64,000 nt of DNA from Promethearchaeota archaeon (GTDB lineage: Archaea > Asgardarchaeota > Hermodarchaeia > Hermodarchaeales > Hermodarchaeaceae). The stretch is from NCBI GenBank assembly GCA_048939625.1, contig JBHLPH010000010.1, forward strand, positions 1 through 64,000, in the 5' to 3' direction. The notes below the pieces were generated by a model. It worked only from the letters and a program-made list of their open reading frames with translations, did not search any database and was not told where the DNA came from. A program made the translations under genes and the position numbers. How positions within the stretch are numbered: position 1 is the stretch's first letter; the number at the start of each line of letters is the position of its first letter. Of the stretch, positions 4,192 to 41,722 are shown one piece after another.

Positions 4192-6051
4192 ATGGGAAGA
4201 CAACACCTACGTCACTTCCACCTTACTGATTTCCACACACGCGACATATATGTTCAACTTGACCCAGATTTTGGCAAAAGCTTCTTTTCAAAAATACTTG
4301 ATCAAATCTCCTTGAAAACTCTCGCTGAGGAACTCGACTCCAAAATCGACCTTTTAGCTCGATACGCTGTGAACTATCGTGAGGATTTAGTGAATCCCGT
4401 TTTCATCGAACTTGGCGTTTTATTGAAGCTTATTAGTACCCACAAGAAATTTCATAGGAATTCAGATATTCTTTCAGATGTGGAAAGAAATGTTCGCGCA
4501 ATTAAAGGGTACGGAAGGTCAGGGCTGCTACGAAATCCACGAATACCAATTAAAGAAGATAACCATCTTGTTCGATTGGTGGTTCATCTAATAGGAGACG
4601 GCACCTTAACAGAGGAATATGGAACAACTAAGACTCCACACTACACAAATGGAAATGCAGTGTTACTTAATCAGTTTCATAGCACTTTGGGACAGGTATT
4701 TGGAGATGTTACTTGTTGTACTCGGAAATATATTGACAGACATGGAAAATCCCGTTCATATGTTGCTTTCACAAAATGGCTCGGTTATCTTCTCCGCCAT
4801 TGGTATCCAGACGCAGGATTTGATGAACTACATGGTTCTCTTCCCAGTGCATTTCTACAACTTCCTTTAGAACTAAAGCGCGAAATTGTTCAGACGTTTG
4901 GGGATGATGATGGGCATGTGGGAGCACATTCTATTCGGTTTACGTCGGGGGGTTCAACGATTCTTGAGCAGATTCGTAGTTTAATTGTGGAGTTGATGGT
5001 GGCGACGTTACCTGTGGAGGAGTTTCAGGTTCTGTTGAAGTCCGTGGGTGAGGTGAAGGCGTGTCGGAGTTGGTTTATTTTGGACGTGTATCGACCGGTG
5101 TTTGGGTGGTATGTGGAGCATATTGGGTTCTCGCATCCGGAGCGGGCTGAGAGGTTGCGGTTTCAGTTAGCTTGTGATAGCGCGTGGGTGGAACGGGGGT
5201 TGGATGGGTTTGATTTGGATTTTCTCACCTTGATTGGGTTGCGAGAGGTTGGGTCGGTGGCGGATGTAGCGCGGCGTTTTGTGTTGCGTGAGGATTTTCT
5301 GTTTCGGGTGGTTGAGCGGTTGCGGCAGTTGGGGTGGATTCGGCGGATGACAAAGCAGAAGTTTACAACGGTGTATCAGACGACATCAAAAGGCGAGGAT
5401 TTCTTAAGGCGGATTTGGGCTCGTGGGTGGTGTGAGCCAGATCGGGTCGTGATGGATGATGCGTGGTGGTCTGAGTTGCGGGGGCAGTTGTTGGATGAGT
5501 ATGGCACCGCTGCAGCAGTGGCGCGGGTGGCGGGGATGCCGGAGACGACGGTGCGGCTGTATTTGCAGGGGCGGCGGCAGTGGATGGATGCGCGATGGGT
5601 AGTGGCGTTAGCGAAGGCGGTGGGGTGGGGGGTGGATGCGGTGTCGAAGGGACTTGTCGTGGGGTTTACACGGAAGTTGGCCCCGCGGTATGAGCAATGT
5701 GATTTCTTGAAAAAGCAATTGGAAGTGTATCGGCAGTTAAGCGATGGACGCCTTGGGTTTGAGGGTTGGCTGTTGAGTCATCGACGAGATGGAGGGCGAT
5801 CGGAGCAGCTGTTAGATGTGGGACATTCGGTGAAGCTGCAAACGGCGTCGGCGATCAGAAATCGAATCGTTGAATTGGCTAGAGTGAATGGGGGAACGAT
5901 TGCTTTGGAAGCGTTGAAGGGTGATGCCGTGTTGCAGGAGTTAGTTGCGAATCGGTATGCGGCGTATTTGGCGGATCGGATGGCGAAGCTGATTAAGCAG
6001 GGGGTGTTTGTGCGTGTGCAGAAGGGACGGTATCAGTTGGTTGAGTTCTGA
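4192..6051 (+). CDS. Free-standing LAGLIDADG (DOD) endonuclease-like protein with multiple HTH/wHTH domains
   Basis: Motifs LVVHLIGDG and IVQTFGDDDG about 100 aa apart; wHTH-like VVERLRQLGWI..YQTTSKG; XRE-like AAAVARVAGMPETTVRLYLQG; no intein splicing motifs. Confidence 0.7.
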   Translation: MGRQHLRHFHLTDFHTRDIYVQLDPDFGKSFFSKILDQISLKTLAEELDSKIDLLARYAVNYREDLVNPVFIELGVLLKLISTHKKFHRNSDILSDVERNVRAIKGYGRSGLLRNPRIPIKEDNHLVRLVVHLIGDGTLTEEYGTTKTPHYTNGNAVLLNQFHSTLGQVFGDVTCCTRKYIDRHGKSRSYVAFTKWLGYLLRHWYPDAGFDELHGSLPSAFLQLPLELKREIVQTFGDDDGHVGAHSIRFTSGGSTILEQIRSLIVELMVATLPVEEFQVLLKSVGEVKACRSWFILDVYRPVFGWYVEHIGFSHPERAERLRFQLACDSAWVERGLDGFDLDFLTLIGLREVGSVADVARRFVLREDFLFRVVERLRQLGWIRRMTKQKFTTVYQTTSKGEDFLRRIWARGWCEPDRVVMDDAWWSELRGQLLDEYGTAAAVARVAGMPETTVRLYLQGRRQWMDARWVVALAKAVGWGVDAVSKGLVVGFTRKLAPRYEQCDFLKKQLEVYRQLSDGRLGFEGWLLSHRRDGGRSEQLLDVGHSVKLQTASAIRNRIVELARVNGGTIALEALKGDAVLQELVANRYAAYLADRMAKLIKQGVFVRVQKGRYQLVEF

Positions 6052-21695: not shown

Positions 21696-22250
21696 GTGGA
21701 CTTGTCAATTGCGGTCAGTGGCATGCACGGAGCAGGCACTACCACGGTTGCCACCGCCCTCGCTGAGGCCTTTAATCTCCGATACATCTCCGCTGGAATG
21801 ATTTTTCGCCAACTCGCAAAAGAAAAAGGAATCTCCTTGGCGGAATTAAGTAAAATCGCTGAAGATAATCCTCAAATCGATCAAGAAATTGATGATCGAA
21901 CCCAACACGAAGCAGAAGCTGGCAACGTAGTTATTGATGCCTATATTGCTGGTTGGGTTGCCCGAAGGCACGCTGATATTGCCATCTACCTTCACGCACC
22001 ATTGGAGATTCGTGCTCTCCGCATTGCAGAACGGGAATCTCGGAATTACGAAGAAATCCTAGAAGAAACGCAAATTCGCGAAAATAGTGAAAGAAGCCGG
22101 TTCCGGGAGTTTTATGGCATAGATGTCACAGACACCCGGCTTTTTGATCTCGTACTTAACACCGAGCACTTCAACGCTGTTGCTACGATAAGTATTTGTA
22201 CCGCAGCTGTAAAGGCGTATCTTGCGTCCTCCGGGACGACAACCGAATGA
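21696..22250 (+). CDS. cmk: Cytidylate kinase (archaeal)
   Basis: ISAGMIFRQLAKE, RIAERE, YGID; P-loop variant GMHGAGTTT. Confidence 0.9.
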   Translation: MDLSIAVSGMHGAGTTTVATALAEAFNLRYISAGMIFRQLAKEKGISLAELSKIAEDNPQIDQEIDDRTQHEAEAGNVVIDAYIAGWVARRHADIAIYLHAPLEIRALRIAERESRNYEEILEETQIRENSERSRFREFYGIDVTDTRLFDLVLNTEHFNAVATISICTAAVKAYLASSGTTTE

Positions 22251-22302: not shown

Positions 22303-22578
22303 ATGAGTCTAGTTGAAGTTGGAAGAGTTTGCGTGAAAACGCGCGGTCGAGAGACCGGAAAGAAATGTGTTGTTGTTGAACGTGTGGACAAAAATTTCGT
22401 CCTTGTATCCGGACCCCAAGAAATTTCTGGAGTCCGTCGTCGCCGAGTGAACGTCGACCATTTGGATCCGACGAAAAAGAAAGTCGACATCAAAGCTGGT
22501 GCAGAAGACGCTGCCATTGTGAAGGCTATCAAGGACGCTAAACTTACACCGTTCATGAAAGAAGCTGGAAAAGAATAA
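22303..22578 (+). CDS. rpl14e: 50S ribosomal protein eL14
   Basis: EVGRVCVKTRGRETGKKCVV, RRRVNVDHLDPT. Confidence 0.96.
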   Translation: MSLVEVGRVCVKTRGRETGKKCVVVERVDKNFVLVSGPQEISGVRRRRVNVDHLDPTKKKVDIKAGAEDAAIVKAIKDAKLTPFMKEAGKE

Positions 22579-22612
22579 CACACCGCTCCCTGTACGGGAG
22601 TTGAGGAGGACA

Positions 22613-23672
22613 TTGGATCTGACAAAATCGCGGCTGCCTGCAGATAAGAAACGGAAATTAGTAACGCGAGCTGAAGACACCACAAACCCTACTTATGGTC
22701 GGATTCCTGCGAAGCGAACTATCCTGGAATTATTCCAGGATGGCATCATTAACCTGGATAGCTTGGCTTAAGGGGTTTCAACCCTTTCCAAACCCAGAAA
22801 AACCACCAGGACCGACCAGTCACGAAGTAGTGTCTTGGATCAAACGCATTCTAGCCATATCTCGTGCAGGCCATTCGGGAACATTGGATCCCCAAGTCAC
22901 AGGTGTACTCCCAGTTATGTTAGGGAATGCCACAAAAATTGCCAATGCCCTGCTAACGTCAGGTAAAGAATACATTTGCATAATGCGCCTTCATCGGCAA
23001 GAAGAACCTCAGAAGGTTCGGGAAGCTGCCACAGAATTCGTTGGGACAATTTATCAACGTCCGCCTGTCCGTTCTTCAGTAAAGCGACGTGTACGCACAC
23101 GTCACATCTATTATCTGGATATCCTTGAAATCGAGGACCAAAACGTACTCTTTCGTGTTGGATGCCAAGCTGGCACCTATATTCGGAAACTCGTTTATGA
23201 TCTTGGTGAAGTTCTCGGCAGTGGAGCCCATATGGCTGAACTCCGACGAACACGCACGGGACCATTCAAAGAAGACAATACGTTAGCAACCTTGTATGAT
23301 GTTAAGGATGCCTATCAGTTTTGGCACGAAGACAAGGATGATCGGCTACTCCGGCAATATCTACAACCTCTCGAAAATGGCGTCCAACATCTACCCCAAA
23401 TTATAATTCGAGACACAGCAGTGGATGCCATATGTCACGGTGCGAACCTAGCGGTTACCGGAGTGTTACAGCTTCATGACGATATCGAACCAGGTGATTA
23501 CGTTGCGCTGATGACCTTGAAGGGTGAGTTGGTCGCCCTCGGAATTGCTCAACAAAAGAGTCAGCAAATATTACAAGCTTCATCAGGGATTGTAGCAGAT
23601 ACCAAGCGGGTTGTGTTAGCAGCAGGAACCTATCCATCCAGTTGGCGAAAAAAAACTAAAGACACTGGCTAA
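22613..23672 (+). CDS. cbf5: H/ACA pseudouridine synthase Cbf5; exon 1 22613-22759, exon 2 22800-23672 (339 aa spliced)
   Basis: Exon 1 (TTG after GAGGAGG) ends YGRIPAKRTILELFQDGIINLD; exon 2 starts KPPGPTSHEV in another frame; catalytic GHSGTLDP and PUA domain are intact. Confidence 0.93.
22760..22799 (+). other. Putative archaeal pre-mRNA intron (40 nt, BHB/BHL type) in cbf5
   Basis: Central helix CUGG(22754-57)/CCAG(22794-97), bulges AU^A and AA^A, internal hairpin; contains an in-frame UAA; excision restores motif I. Confidence 0.88.
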
Positions 23673-23697: not shown

Positions 23698-23813
23698 TGG
23701 CGCCGCGGACGAGATTCGAACTCGTGCGACCCGAGAGTCACAGGCTATATGAGCATCGCCAAATTAGTGACGAGATTCCAGGCCTGCGCCGTAAACCACT
23801 TGGCTACCGCGGC
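23698..23813 (-). tRNA. tRNA-Ser(GGA) with 29-nt intron at 37/38 (23747-23775), encoded CCA
   Basis: GCCGCGG acceptor stem, AGCCAAGTGG D-arm, CAGGC-CT-GGA-A anticodon arm, long variable arm, GTTCGAATC T-loop. Confidence 0.96.
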
Positions 23814-25910: not shown

Positions 25911-26855
25911 ATGAAGATAACCATCCTTGAAAAAACCGAAGACACCCTCAAGCTTCAAGTGGAAGGAGTTCAACCTGGTTTAATGAATGCCCTGCGCCGC
26001 ATCATTATAGCTGAAACTCCATCGATGGCAATTGAAGAAGTTGTGATTCTTGAAAACCAGTCGCCACTCTTCGATGAAATCATTGCACACCGTCTTGGTC
26101 TTGTCCCTCTTCGGACGAATTATGATACCTATGTTTTGCCATCTGAATGCACCTGTCAAGGCGCTGGTTGTCACCTCTGTCAGGCAGGCTTTACCATGGA
26201 GGTTGAAGCACCTGAAGATGGCTATCTAGCCACAACAGGAGACCTCAAACCCCAAGACCCGGACACGGTACCAGTAAGTGATAAGATTCCCATTGCCAAA
26301 ATGGCGAAAGGACAGCGCATTGTTGTCGAAGCATATGCTCGGTTGGGGGTTGGGCTTGATCATGCCAAATGGCAACCCGTATCTACCATGGCCTACAAAA
26401 TGATCCCTCACGTGGAGGTCGATCCTAAGAAGTGTGATGGATGTAAAGAATGCATCGAAGCCTGCTTTCGAAAGGTTTTCGAAATGCAAAACGACAAAGC
26501 TGTTGTCGTTGATGAAATGAATTGTACCATATGTAATCTCTGTGTGGAAACTTGTGATGTTCAAGCCATTAAAGTAACATACGAAGAAAACAGCTTCATC
26601 GTGACGATTGAATCCACTGGAGCAGCACCGCCTGAGCAAATTGTTGAGAAAGGCTTTGACGTATTTCGCGCAAAATATGAGAATCTTATTAAACTACTTC
26701 CAGGTCGTGCACCAAAAACCTCTACGAAACCAAAGAAGACAAAGAAAGCAGCTGCCACCAAACCCAAAATCACTAAAAAAACACCCGCAAAGAAAAAGAC
26801 CACTAAGGCTAAGTCGACCACGAAATCGAAAGCCAAGAGCAAGAAATCCAAATGA
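25911..26855 (+). CDS. rpoD: RNA polymerase subunit D (Rpo3) with ferredoxin-like domain and Lys-rich tail
   Basis: NALRR, AHRLGLVPL, HAKWQP, two CxxCxxCxxxC motifs. Confidence 0.96.
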   Translation: MKITILEKTEDTLKLQVEGVQPGLMNALRRIIIAETPSMAIEEVVILENQSPLFDEIIAHRLGLVPLRTNYDTYVLPSECTCQGAGCHLCQAGFTMEVEAPEDGYLATTGDLKPQDPDTVPVSDKIPIAKMAKGQRIVVEAYARLGVGLDHAKWQPVSTMAYKMIPHVEVDPKKCDGCKECIEACFRKVFEMQNDKAVVVDEMNCTICNLCVETCDVQAIKVTYEENSFIVTIESTGAAPPEQIVEKGFDVFRAKYENLIKLLPGRAPKTSTKPKKTKKAAATKPKITKKTPAKKKTTKAKSTTKSKAKSKKSK

Positions 26856-41158: not shown

Positions 41159-41722
41159 TTGGCTGCCACGCAGCTGCGACAATGTACTTTAGTTCTCCCA
41201 AAACATCTCCGTGAATCCCTAAAAGGCCCCAAGGGTAAACTCTTTTCACGAAAAGACTTAGGCGCAGCGAAAGATGCCTGTACCTATATTCGCAAACACA
41301 AACTAAGTCCAGTCATTGCAGTCGGTGACCTTGTATCGATTAATCTCATGAAAGTTGATTGCCAAGCCACTCTGTCAATTATAGATGGGAAAACCAAGCG
41401 AAATGATTCTATCGAGTATGGTATTCCGACAGATGTAACTTTCACCGCGACCAACGCTGCTACAGAAATTCGACCTGAGGTGTGGATAGCTATTGAACTT
41501 GCTCTTGCAGCAGGACAAACTGGGAAAACTGCGAAACTCTTAATAGAGGGCGAAGAGGACCTAACGGCACTACCCGCAGTGGCTCTTGCACCCAATGGGT
41601 CTGCCGTTGTTTATGGACTTCCTGATCAAGGCATCGTTGTTATCAAAGTAGCCTCAGAGCATAAACAGGCGGTTCACACAATACTGCAAAAAATGGTGCA
41701 AAAAAATGAAAATCAAGATTGA
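41159..41722 (+). CDS. DUF359 GTP-dependent dephospho-CoA kinase
   Basis: AVGD, DGKTKR, GEEDL, YGLP. Confidence 0.88.
   Translation: MAATQLRQCTLVLPKHLRESLKGPKGKLFSRKDLGAAKDACTYIRKHKLSPVIAVGDLVSINLMKVDCQATLSIIDGKTKRNDSIEYGIPTDVTFTATNAATEIRPEVWIAIELALAAGQTGKTAKLLIEGEEDLTALPAVALAPNGSAVVYGLPDQGIVVIKVASEHKQAVHTILQKMVQKNENQD

What the first reader, a model, noticed from the sequence alone, without database searches (positions are those of the whole stretch)
22613..23672. Pre-mRNA intron in cbf5 with a tRNA-endonuclease (BHB-like) splice motif, inside motif I
Seen: the Cbf5 N-terminus (TTG 22613) reads ...GIINLD-SLA-stop, and the remainder (KPPGPTSHEV...) is in another frame. The intervening 40 nt (AGCUUGGCUUAAGGGGUUUCAACCCUUUCCAAACCCAGAA) fold as a 4-bp central helix CUGG/CCAG, a 3-nt bulge AUA closed by G22761-C22793, an opposite AAA, and an internal UUGG/CCAA plus 7-bp UUCA-loop hairpin. 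Cutting after the second nucleotide of each bulge (the EndA rule) removes exactly 22760-22799 and gives GAU-AAA = D-K, the invariant GIINLDKPPGPTSH, and a normal 339-aa protein. The exon-side helix is unpaired, so this is a relaxed HBh'/BHL substrate. Established: cbf5 mRNA introns spliced by EndA are known in some Crenarchaeota. Inference: a functional mRNA intron in a probably non-crenarchaeal (Asgard-like) lineage, apparently upstream of the catalytic-Asp region and possibly an independent gain. It would couple H/ACA pseudouridylation to tRNA-splicing capacity and would be misannotated as a truncated or frameshifted gene.
Basis: partly seen in the sequence, partly recalled or inferred. Interest (0 to 1): 0.93.

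Follow-up and report, generated by a model that had tools for sequence, protein, structure and literature searches.

The report
tRNA-type intron splitting Asgard cbf5
The only gene for the pseudouridine synthase Cbf5 in this Asgard (Hermodarchaeota) archaeon is broken by a 40-base insert shaped like an archaeal tRNA intron; the insert is kept in all 15 related sequences examined and lies at a different site from the cbf5 intron long known in Crenarchaeota, so it is very probably a second, independently gained mRNA intron, though no RNA data could be obtained.

Summary
Observation confirmed. cbf5 reads ...GIINLD (22613-22759), then a 40-nt insert (22760-22799), then KPPGPTSHEV... in another frame (22800-23672). 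It is the only cbf5 in the genome.

All 14 genomes of the genus with the region assembled, plus one metagenomic relative, carry a 40-43 nt insert at exactly D|K. Its length falls in all three phases and it contains stops. The sister genus and about 76 other archaeal cbf5 loci are continuous there.

RNAalifold independently predicts the proposed structure: a 4-bp helix CUGG/CCAG, a 3-nt bulge AUA, an intron helix and hairpin, and AAA at the 3' site. Across the 15 sequences, 94.5% of cells pair, 7 pairs show compensatory changes, and 0 of 500 shuffles reach these values.

Exon 1 is under purifying selection (pN/pS 0.20). The genome encodes alpha and beta EndA paralogues; the alpha is closest to Aeropyrum pernix EndA and keeps the specificity-loop lysine. 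RtcB is present.

The classical crenarchaeal intron sits 30 codons downstream, in the catalytic Asp codon. I also found it in other Asgard, Bathyarchaeia and Culexarchaeia genomes. The Hermodarchaeota site is therefore new and independent.

No RNA evidence was obtainable. This scan has already noted tRNA-type mRNA introns on other DNA and in three other genes of this genome. I file this as a new member of a known kind.

The parts
22613..22759 (+). cbf5 exon 1 (49 codons; the start could instead be TTG 22601). It encodes the DKCLD-domain N-terminus and ends with ...GIINLD.
   Evidence: Translation. Pfam DKCLD PF08068, E 1.2e-08. pN/pS 0.20 across 12 genomes of the genus.
22754..22757 (+). 5' strand of the central 4-bp helix H (CUGG; Leu-Asp codons CTG GA.).
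   Evidence: Pairs with 22794-22797. The pairing is 4/4 in 15 of 15 sequences. The CTG Leu codon is invariant in intron-bearing genomes but varies (CTC, ATC, ATA, GTG) in the intron-less sister genus.
22758..22760 (+). 5' three-nucleotide bulge AUA. The predicted EndA cut is between 22759 and 22760.
   Evidence: AUA in 14 of 15 sequences and ACA in 1. It is flanked by H and by G22761-C22793.
22760..22799 (+). 40-nt bulge-helix-bulge (HBh') intron.
   Evidence: Present at D|K in 14 of 14 genomes of the genus and in one metagenomic relative. Lengths are 40-43 nt, fall in all three phases, and contain stops. Absent from the sister genus and from about 76 other archaeal loci.
22761..22793 (+). Intron helix h' (22761-22766 with 22788-22793, one C.A mismatch) enclosing a 7-bp hairpin (22770-22776 with 22781-22787, loop UUCA).
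   Evidence: Predicted independently by RNAalifold. Seven pairs carry compensatory changes, for example UU/AA becoming GC/GC in the JGI relative.
22794..22797 (+). 3' strand of central helix H (CCAG; CCGG or CUAG in relatives, all still pairing).
   Evidence: 100% of cells paired, and the changes are G-U wobbles on the intron side only.
22798..22800 (+). 3' splice-site triplet AAA. The predicted cut is between 22799 and 22800. It is not closed by an exon helix, so the motif is relaxed.
   Evidence: AAA in 15 of 15 sequences. No conserved pairing between columns 1-9 and 60-73 of the alignment.
22800..23672 (+). cbf5 exon 2 (290 codons plus stop). It contains KPPGPTSH, the catalytic GTLDP, and the TruB_N, TruB_C_2 and PUA domains.
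   Evidence: Translation. Pfam PF01509, PF16198 and PF01472. It is the only full cbf5 match in the genome.

Best explanation
The 40 nt at 22760-22799 are an archaeal bulge-helix-bulge intron in the cbf5 pre-mRNA.

Proposed mechanism: in the transcript, exon bases CUGG (22754-22757) pair with intron bases CCAG (22794-22797). This presents a 3-nt bulge (AUA) closed by the intron's own helix, and an AAA triplet at the 3' end. This is a relaxed HBh' substrate.

The host's two-subunit splicing endonuclease (alpha/beta EndA carrying the crenarchaeal-type specificity loop) cuts after the second nucleotide of each triplet. RtcB then joins GAU to AAA. The product is an mRNA for a normal 339-aa Cbf5 with NLDKPPGPTSH intact, and the intron is probably released as a 40-nt circle.

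Unspliced mRNA would yield only a peptide of about 52 aa, so Cbf5 and H/ACA pseudouridylation depend on the tRNA-splicing machinery.

The intron was gained within Hermodarchaeota, after or near the split of the window's genus from its intron-less sister genus. It lies at a site different from the classical cbf5 intron.

Shown here: the sequence anatomy, conservation, covariation, selection on the exons, and presence of the enzymes. Inferred: cleavage, ligation and circularisation in vivo.
For: 1. The insert sits exactly between the codons of the invariant D and K. Fourteen of 14 genomes of the genus with the region assembled, plus a JGI metagenomic relative at 73% identity, have it. Lengths are 40, 40, 41, 41, 40, 41, 42, 43, 41, 42, 42, 40, 42, 42 and 42 nt, so all three phases occur, and there are in-frame stops. 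An RNA-level removal fits this; a translated insertion cannot.
2. The sister genus (4 genomes) and about 76 other archaeal cbf5 loci read INLDKP... without a break.
3. RNAalifold, given only the alignment, returns H, the 3-nt bulge, h' and the hairpin. On 15 sequences, 94.5% of cells pair, 7 pairs have compensatory changes, 0 of 500 shuffles reach these values, and slid controls drop to 64% paired or less.
4. The bulge rule is met in 15 of 15 sequences; only 0.05% of shuffled introns meet it.
5. Exon 1 has pN/pS 0.20 and exon 2 has 0.14, so both are translated.
6. There is a single cbf5 in the genome.
7. There are two EndA paralogues. The alpha (186 aa) has its best PDB match to Aeropyrum pernix EndA alpha, 3P1Z_B, at 4.8e-47. 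It has RKPK aligned to EKPR, which holds K44 and R46 of the specificity loop shown to confer cleavage of relaxed motifs (PMC3241643). The beta lacks the catalytic His. RtcB is present.
8. Three other broken genes in the same genome (a Rab-like GTPase, an EF-2 paralogue and dnaG) obey the same geometry with A-rich bulges and weak or absent h, and give conserved motifs when spliced.
9. The precedent is crenarchaeal cbf5 introns with unconventional BHB motifs, cut by hetero-oligomeric EndA (PMC2738675).
Against: There is no RNA-level evidence.

The single-sequence fold is not better than shuffles (z = 0.40), and its MFE uses a competing exon-exon helix.

The 3' cut site is not in a closed bulge, so cleavage depends on a broad-specificity EndA. 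That specificity is inferred from sequence only.

Central helix H shows only one-sided (wobble) changes, because its 5' strand is coding.

The related genomes are not independent samples.
Confidence: 0.88

Rival explanations
1. cbf5 is a pseudogene, or the insert is an assembly or sequencing artefact, and nothing is spliced.
For: The genome is an 87.6% complete MAG with 6.3% contamination. The unspliced gene is frameshifted.
Against: Fifteen independent assemblies from different studies carry an insert at the same codon boundary. Both exons are under purifying selection. The insert's structure covaries. No other cbf5 exists in the genome.
Confidence: 0.03
2. The ribosome gets across the insert by recoding (a +1 frameshift or a gene-60-like bypass), with no RNA cutting.
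For: In the window, the exon-2 frame is open through the insert (ORF 22695-23672). The insert also has a hairpin.
Against: Insert lengths fall in all three phases, and several inserts carry stops in the entry frame and in the in-frame reading. One recoding rule therefore cannot serve all species. There is no GAY landing codon at the 3' end and no stop directly after the take-off codon. A read-through would put about 13 non-conserved residues inside motif I.
Confidence: 0.02
3. Cbf5 is made as two polypeptides, a roughly 52-aa N-terminal piece and a 290-aa body, that assemble.
For: Exon 1 ends in a stop three codons into the insert. Databases annotate the body alone.
Against: There is no conserved start codon or ribosome-binding site at the head of exon 2; the callers' starts differ between relatives and lie inside or far from the junction. 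The break falls inside the contiguous motif NLD|KPPGPTSH. This rival does not explain the covarying bulge-helix-bulge structure.
Confidence: 0.02
4. The insert is removed from the RNA, but by something other than EndA and RtcB, for example another nuclease, or with boundaries shifted from those predicted.
For: The 3' site lacks a closing helix. There is a 1-nt boundary ambiguity (A22760 equals A22800).
Against: At 40 nt the insert is too short for a group I or group II ribozyme, and it has no Rfam match. Its geometry equals that of the classical cbf5 intron, whose cleavage by EndA is published (PMC2738675), and of the 15 classical-site inserts tested here.
Confidence: 0.04

Closest known systems
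Classical cbf5 pre-mRNA intron of Crenarchaeota (Aeropyrum, Sulfolobales, Desulfurococcales; Watanabe 2002 as cited in, and Yokobori 2009, PMC2738675)
   Same: It is in the same gene. It has the same kind of short intron (20-41 nt in the loci I examined) and the same unconventional bulge-helix-bulge, with cuts after the second bulge nucleotide. It depends on the same hetero-oligomeric EndA. Its bulges are also A-rich (AGA and AAA), and it also follows a Leu-Asp codon pair.
   Different: The site differs. The classical intron lies inside the catalytic Asp codon of GTLD|P (cut CUAG|A), which is residue 30 of exon 2. The present one lies 30 codons upstream, between D and K of motif I, in phase 0. 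The central helices differ (CYCU/GGGG or CUCU/AGAG versus CUGG/CCAG), and I saw no sequence similarity between the introns. The lineage is also different (Hermodarchaeota).
Non-canonical tRNA introns of Asgard archaea and Thermoproteales, cut at relaxed HBh'/BHL motifs by (alpha-beta)2 EndA (PMC3241643; PMC11291895; bioRxiv 10.64898/2026.10.13.758758)
   Same: It has the same motif grammar and the same enzymes. This genome is itself rich in tRNA introns: 13 of 26 ARAGORN tRNA calls have one.
   Different: The host RNA is an mRNA coding sequence, so the exon half of the motif is made of codons and splicing restores a reading frame rather than a cloverleaf.
Other candidate mRNA bulge-helix-bulge introns noted by this scan (dnaG, an EF-2 paralogue and a Rab-like GTPase in this genome; Jordarchaeia and DPANN genes elsewhere)
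   Same: The geometry is the same; I checked it here for the three in this genome. The phylum, or the genome itself, is the same.
   Different: The genes differ. None of these is published, and they are AI notes apart from what I re-derived.

Membership tests
Archaeal bulge-helix-bulge (EndA-dependent) introns | A 4-bp central helix with a 3-nt bulge on each strand, each bulge 3' of its helix strand. | tested here: met
   CUGG/CCAG with AUA and AAA. This holds in 15 of 15 sequences and is predicted by RNAalifold.
Archaeal bulge-helix-bulge (EndA-dependent) introns | Both flanking helices h and h' present (the strict hBHBh' form). | tested here: not met
   h' is present and covaries. The exon helix h is absent. 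This is the relaxed HBh' form, as for most crenarchaeal cbf5 introns (PMC2738675).
Archaeal bulge-helix-bulge (EndA-dependent) introns | Cutting after the second nucleotide of each bulge yields the functional mature RNA. | tested here: met
   The cuts give GAU-AAA, which restores NLDKPPGPTSH. This matches about 80 intron-less homologues.
Archaeal bulge-helix-bulge (EndA-dependent) introns | The host encodes an EndA type able to cut relaxed motifs, and an RtcB ligase. | tested here: met
   Alpha and beta paralogues are present. The alpha has the specificity-loop Lys aligned to A. pernix K44. RtcB scores 570 bits. This is sequence evidence only.
Archaeal bulge-helix-bulge (EndA-dependent) introns | Excision and exon ligation observed in RNA or in vitro. 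| not testable with these tools
No spliced-form protein is on record.
Classical cbf5 intron lineage (common-origin intron of Sulfolobales and Desulfurococcales) | Insertion inside the catalytic Asp codon of GTLDP. | tested here: not met
   The window reads GHSGTLDPQVTG without a break. Its intron is 30 codons upstream.
Classical cbf5 intron lineage (common-origin intron of Sulfolobales and Desulfurococcales) | Intron sequence conserved with the crenarchaeal introns. | tested here: not met
   The helix sequences and intron bodies differ on inspection. No formal alignment statistic was computed.

The most novel reading that the evidence does not exclude
cbf5 has been invaded independently at two different conserved motifs in different archaeal phyla because splicing-dependent expression of Cbf5 is selected for. 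It would act as a checkpoint tying H/ACA pseudouridylation to EndA/RtcB capacity. In this reading the Hermodarchaeota genus runs a small set of EndA-spliced mRNAs (cbf5, dnaG, an EF-2 paralogue and a Rab-like GTPase), so mRNA splicing by the tRNA machinery would be a regular layer of gene expression in a close relative of eukaryotes.
Probability: 0.2. Interest if true: 0.85.

Novelty: new member of a known kind. Interest (0 to 1): 0.62.

Why it matters
In the papers I could search and read, cbf5 of Crenarchaeota is the archaeal coding sequence reported to need the tRNA-splicing endonuclease (PMC2738675).

This finding puts a second, independently gained intron in the same gene, at a new site, in Asgard archaea, the closest prokaryotic relatives of eukaryotes. 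No paper in the searched library combines cbf5, intron and Asgard.

Three consequences follow:
- The machinery and substrate grammar for mRNA splicing are in use in that lineage.
- Gene callers systematically truncate these Cbf5 proteins: about 35 database clusters of 247-281 aa lack the DKCLD domain.
- The recurrence in cbf5 raises the question of why this gene is hit twice.

It also gives a clean gain event to study, because intron-bearing and intron-less sister genera are both available.

Tried and rejected
- **Single-sequence folding.** It was not significant (z = 0.40), and the MFE uses an exon-exon CCUGG/CCAGG helix. That helix is not conserved in relatives (CCTGG replaces CCAGG in several), so I rejected it.
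- **Spliced-form proteins.** I searched the protein collection with exon 2 and with exon 1 against longer proteins. Neither found one. The only long hit, P0123, is exon 1 fused to unrelated dockerin-like sequence on a 964-nt contig and is probably a chimera.
- **Intron copies elsewhere in the genome.** blastn-short found nothing better than 14 nt at E 0.2, so there is no sign of a repeated mobile element.
- **Rfam.** No match around the intron.
- **Genome-wide scan.** I scanned for bulge-helix-bulge geometry that fuses two open frames of at least 50 codons. It gave 40 real hits against 40 decoy hits, so it has no power at this stringency. It did recover cbf5 and the EF-2 paralogue.
- **tRNA-Ser mimicry.** Both share CCUGGA, but the tRNA intron has no CCAG partner, does not fold into a canonical motif in the MFE, and is unrelated in sequence. 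I do not consider this supported.
- **Other readings.** Pseudogene, recoding, split-protein and ribozyme readings are covered under the rival explanations.

Full report
**What is there.**
The window carries the archaeal cluster cmk (21696-22250), the L14e-like gene (22303-22578) and cbf5, followed by a tRNA gene and then the S13 and S4 genes.

From TTG 22613 (an alternative TTG lies at 22601) the cbf5 frame reads 49 codons ending GIINLD. It then runs SLA-stop. From 22800 a different frame reads KPPGPTSHEV... for 290 codons to TAA 23670-23672.

Pfam places DKCLD on the first piece and TruB_N, TruB_C_2 and PUA on the second.

**Is it more than chance?**
On the single sequence, folding energy says nothing. 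The z-score is 0.40, and the MFE prefers an exon-exon CCUGG/CCAGG helix. The test has to be comparative.

The genome (2.31 Mb, 83 contigs, 87.6% complete) has one cbf5. Among 40 relatives, every genome of the same genus with the region assembled has an insert at exactly the D|K boundary. That is 12 loci plus two fetched.

The insert lengths are 40, 40, 41, 41, 40, 41, 42, 43, 41, 42, 42, 40, 42 and 42 nt. A JGI metagenomic relative at 73% identity has a 42-nt one. The lengths fall in all three phases, and the in-frame ones contain stops.

The four genomes of the sister genus, and every other archaeal locus examined (about 76, spanning methanogens, DPANN, Thermoproteota and other Asgard), read INLDKP... 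continuously.

**Structure.**
RNAalifold on 12 sequences returned the proposed structure unprompted:
- helix H, columns 10-13 with 53-56;
- a 3-nt bulge;
- helix h';
- an inner hairpin.

Counting pairs on 15 sequences gives 94.5% of cells paired and 7 pairs with changes on both sides. None of 500 shuffles reaches these values, and slid registers fall to 64% paired or less.

H is paired in 100% of cells, with intron-side wobble variants CCGG and CUAG. In the JGI relative h' is GCGCG/CGCGC instead of GCUUG/CAAGC.

A rule check used H 4/4, bulges cut after the second nucleotide, and boundaries fixed by protein homology. It is met in 15 of 15 sequences and by 0.05% of shuffled introns.

The Leu codon that forms H is CTG in all intron-bearing genomes. 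In the intron-less sister genus the corresponding codon is CTC, ATC, ATA or GTG. This is a synonymous-site constraint expected of an exon half-site.

**Are the exons used?**
Exon 1 has pN/pS 0.20 and the first 80 codons of exon 2 have 0.14, at pS of about 0.6-0.7. Both pieces are therefore translated in their own frames in all species, which requires that the insert is taken out.

**Enzymes.**
The genome has two tRNA_int_endo genes.

The 186-aa one has both EndA domains and the Y/H/K catalytic residues. Its best solved relative is the catalytic alpha subunit of Aeropyrum pernix EndA (3P1Z_B, 4.8e-47). In that alignment, RKPK lies opposite EKPR. EKPR holds K44 and R46 of the Crenarchaea-specific loop. 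Mutagenesis showed that loop to be needed for cutting relaxed motifs (PMC3241643).

The 198-aa one lacks the catalytic His and matches beta and structural subunits. RtcB is present.

Two paralogues are the rule in the Asgard genomes sampled. This agrees with a recent preprint that found two paralogues in 44 of 60 genomes. The enzyme is thus a permissive background, not something specific to this genus.

**Taxon.**
The closest public records are titled Candidatus Hermodarchaeota, with some labelled Promethearchaeota or Thorarchaeota. NCBI places Hermodarchaeota in Promethearchaeati.

**Comparison with the known cbf5 intron.**
Yokobori et al. 2009 describe the intron of Sulfolobales and Desulfurococcales as having an unconventional bulge-helix-bulge cut by hetero-oligomeric EndA.

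In the Sulfolobales, Desulfurococcales and Ignisphaera loci fetched here, that intron lies in GTL-D|P, inside the catalytic Asp codon. This is residue 30 of my exon 2.

All 15 classical-site inserts I found obey the rule in the register CUAG|A, with H of CYCU/GGGG or CUCU/AGAG. Besides Crenarchaeota, they occur in:
- Asgard Borrarchaeum;
- Asgard Atabeyarchaeum;
- one further Asgard family;
- four Bathyarchaeia;
- Culexmicrobium.

The Hermodarchaeota genomes lack that intron and have theirs 30 codons upstream, in phase 0, with a different H. The two are therefore separate gains in one gene.

With all outgroups and the sister genus intron-less at D|K, one gain on the lineage of the window's genus is the most parsimonious history. 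A gain in the family ancestor followed by loss in the sister genus costs one more step and is not excluded.

**Context in this genome.**

Earlier notes of this scan pointed to inserts in a Rab-like GTPase, an EF-2 paralogue and dnaG. I located all three and checked them with the same rule. Each has H 4/4, A-rich bulges, a strong h' and a weak h. Each gives a conserved motif when spliced: YIMTVGTSF, EEQRRGITIKSAN and GQTEGLLGEDL.

The cbf5 intron is thus one of at least four candidate mRNA introns here. The scan has also reported the same kind of thing on other DNA, in Jordarchaeia and DPANN. Those notes are leads, not evidence.

**What is not shown.**
There are no RNA data. Cleavage of a 3' site without a closing helix is inferred from the EndA type.

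**Rivals.**
- Artefact or pseudogene is excluded by 15 assemblies, selection on the exons and covariation.
- Recoding fails because phases and stops differ among species and no landing codon exists.
- A two-polypeptide Cbf5 lacks a conserved start and does not explain the RNA structure.
- A ribozyme is ruled out by size.

**Verdict.**
This is a real feature and very probably (0.88) an EndA/RtcB-spliced mRNA intron. In mechanism it is a new member of the known kind. It is new in site, lineage and origin, and unreported in the searchable literature.

Noticed in passing
window 23701-23813 (-): A tRNA-Ser(GGA) gene with a 29-nt intron at 37/38. Default ARAGORN missed it; Rfam and ARAGORN with introns allowed found it. 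Its intron does not form a canonical bulge-helix-bulge in the MFE fold.
   Followed up: partly
L116 (G005:C30:47300-50300, minus strand) and L117 (G010:C9:49900-52900, minus strand): In two genomes of the genus, cbf5 carries an in-frame intein as well as the 42-nt D|K intron. The intein is about 540 aa, is inserted after GTYIRKL (Cys...SN/Cys), and has LAGLIDADG-type motifs. One gene therefore has both an RNA-level and a protein-level intervening sequence.
   Followed up: partly
L026, L031, L079, L081, L099 (Asgard); L046, L070, L084, L094 (Bathyarchaeia); L064 (Culexmicrobium): The classical cbf5 intron site, inside the catalytic Asp codon of GTLDP, is occupied by 20-41 nt inserts that fit the bulge-helix-bulge rule. 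This extends well beyond Sulfolobales and Desulfurococcales, including Borrarchaeum, Atabeyarchaeum and another Asgard family. I found no paper reporting this.
   Followed up: partly
G000 C12 (-) near 41433; C28 (-) 25996-26026; C63 (+) near 5080: Three further protein genes of this genome are broken by inserts of 30, 31 and 28 nt with the same geometry: a Rab-like GTPase, an EF-2 paralogue and dnaG. Each restores a conserved motif when removed. The leads came from earlier scan notes.
   Followed up: partly
protein collection, P0004-P0040: About 35 clusters of close relatives of this Cbf5 are annotated as 247-281 aa proteins without the DKCLD domain. The window's own call (P0003, 310 aa) starts in the wrong frame and translates the intron. 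This is systematic misannotation caused by the intron.
   Followed up: yes
P0123 (ENA contig of 964 nt): A 100-aa protein joins a Hermodarchaeota-type cbf5 exon 1 (77% identity, ending GIINLE) to unrelated dockerin-like sequence. It is probably a chimeric contig.
   Followed up: no
G000 whole genome: Half of the tRNA genes that ARAGORN can call (13 of 26) are interrupted. Only 26 are called at all, which suggests more are hidden by multiple or non-canonical introns.
   Followed up: no
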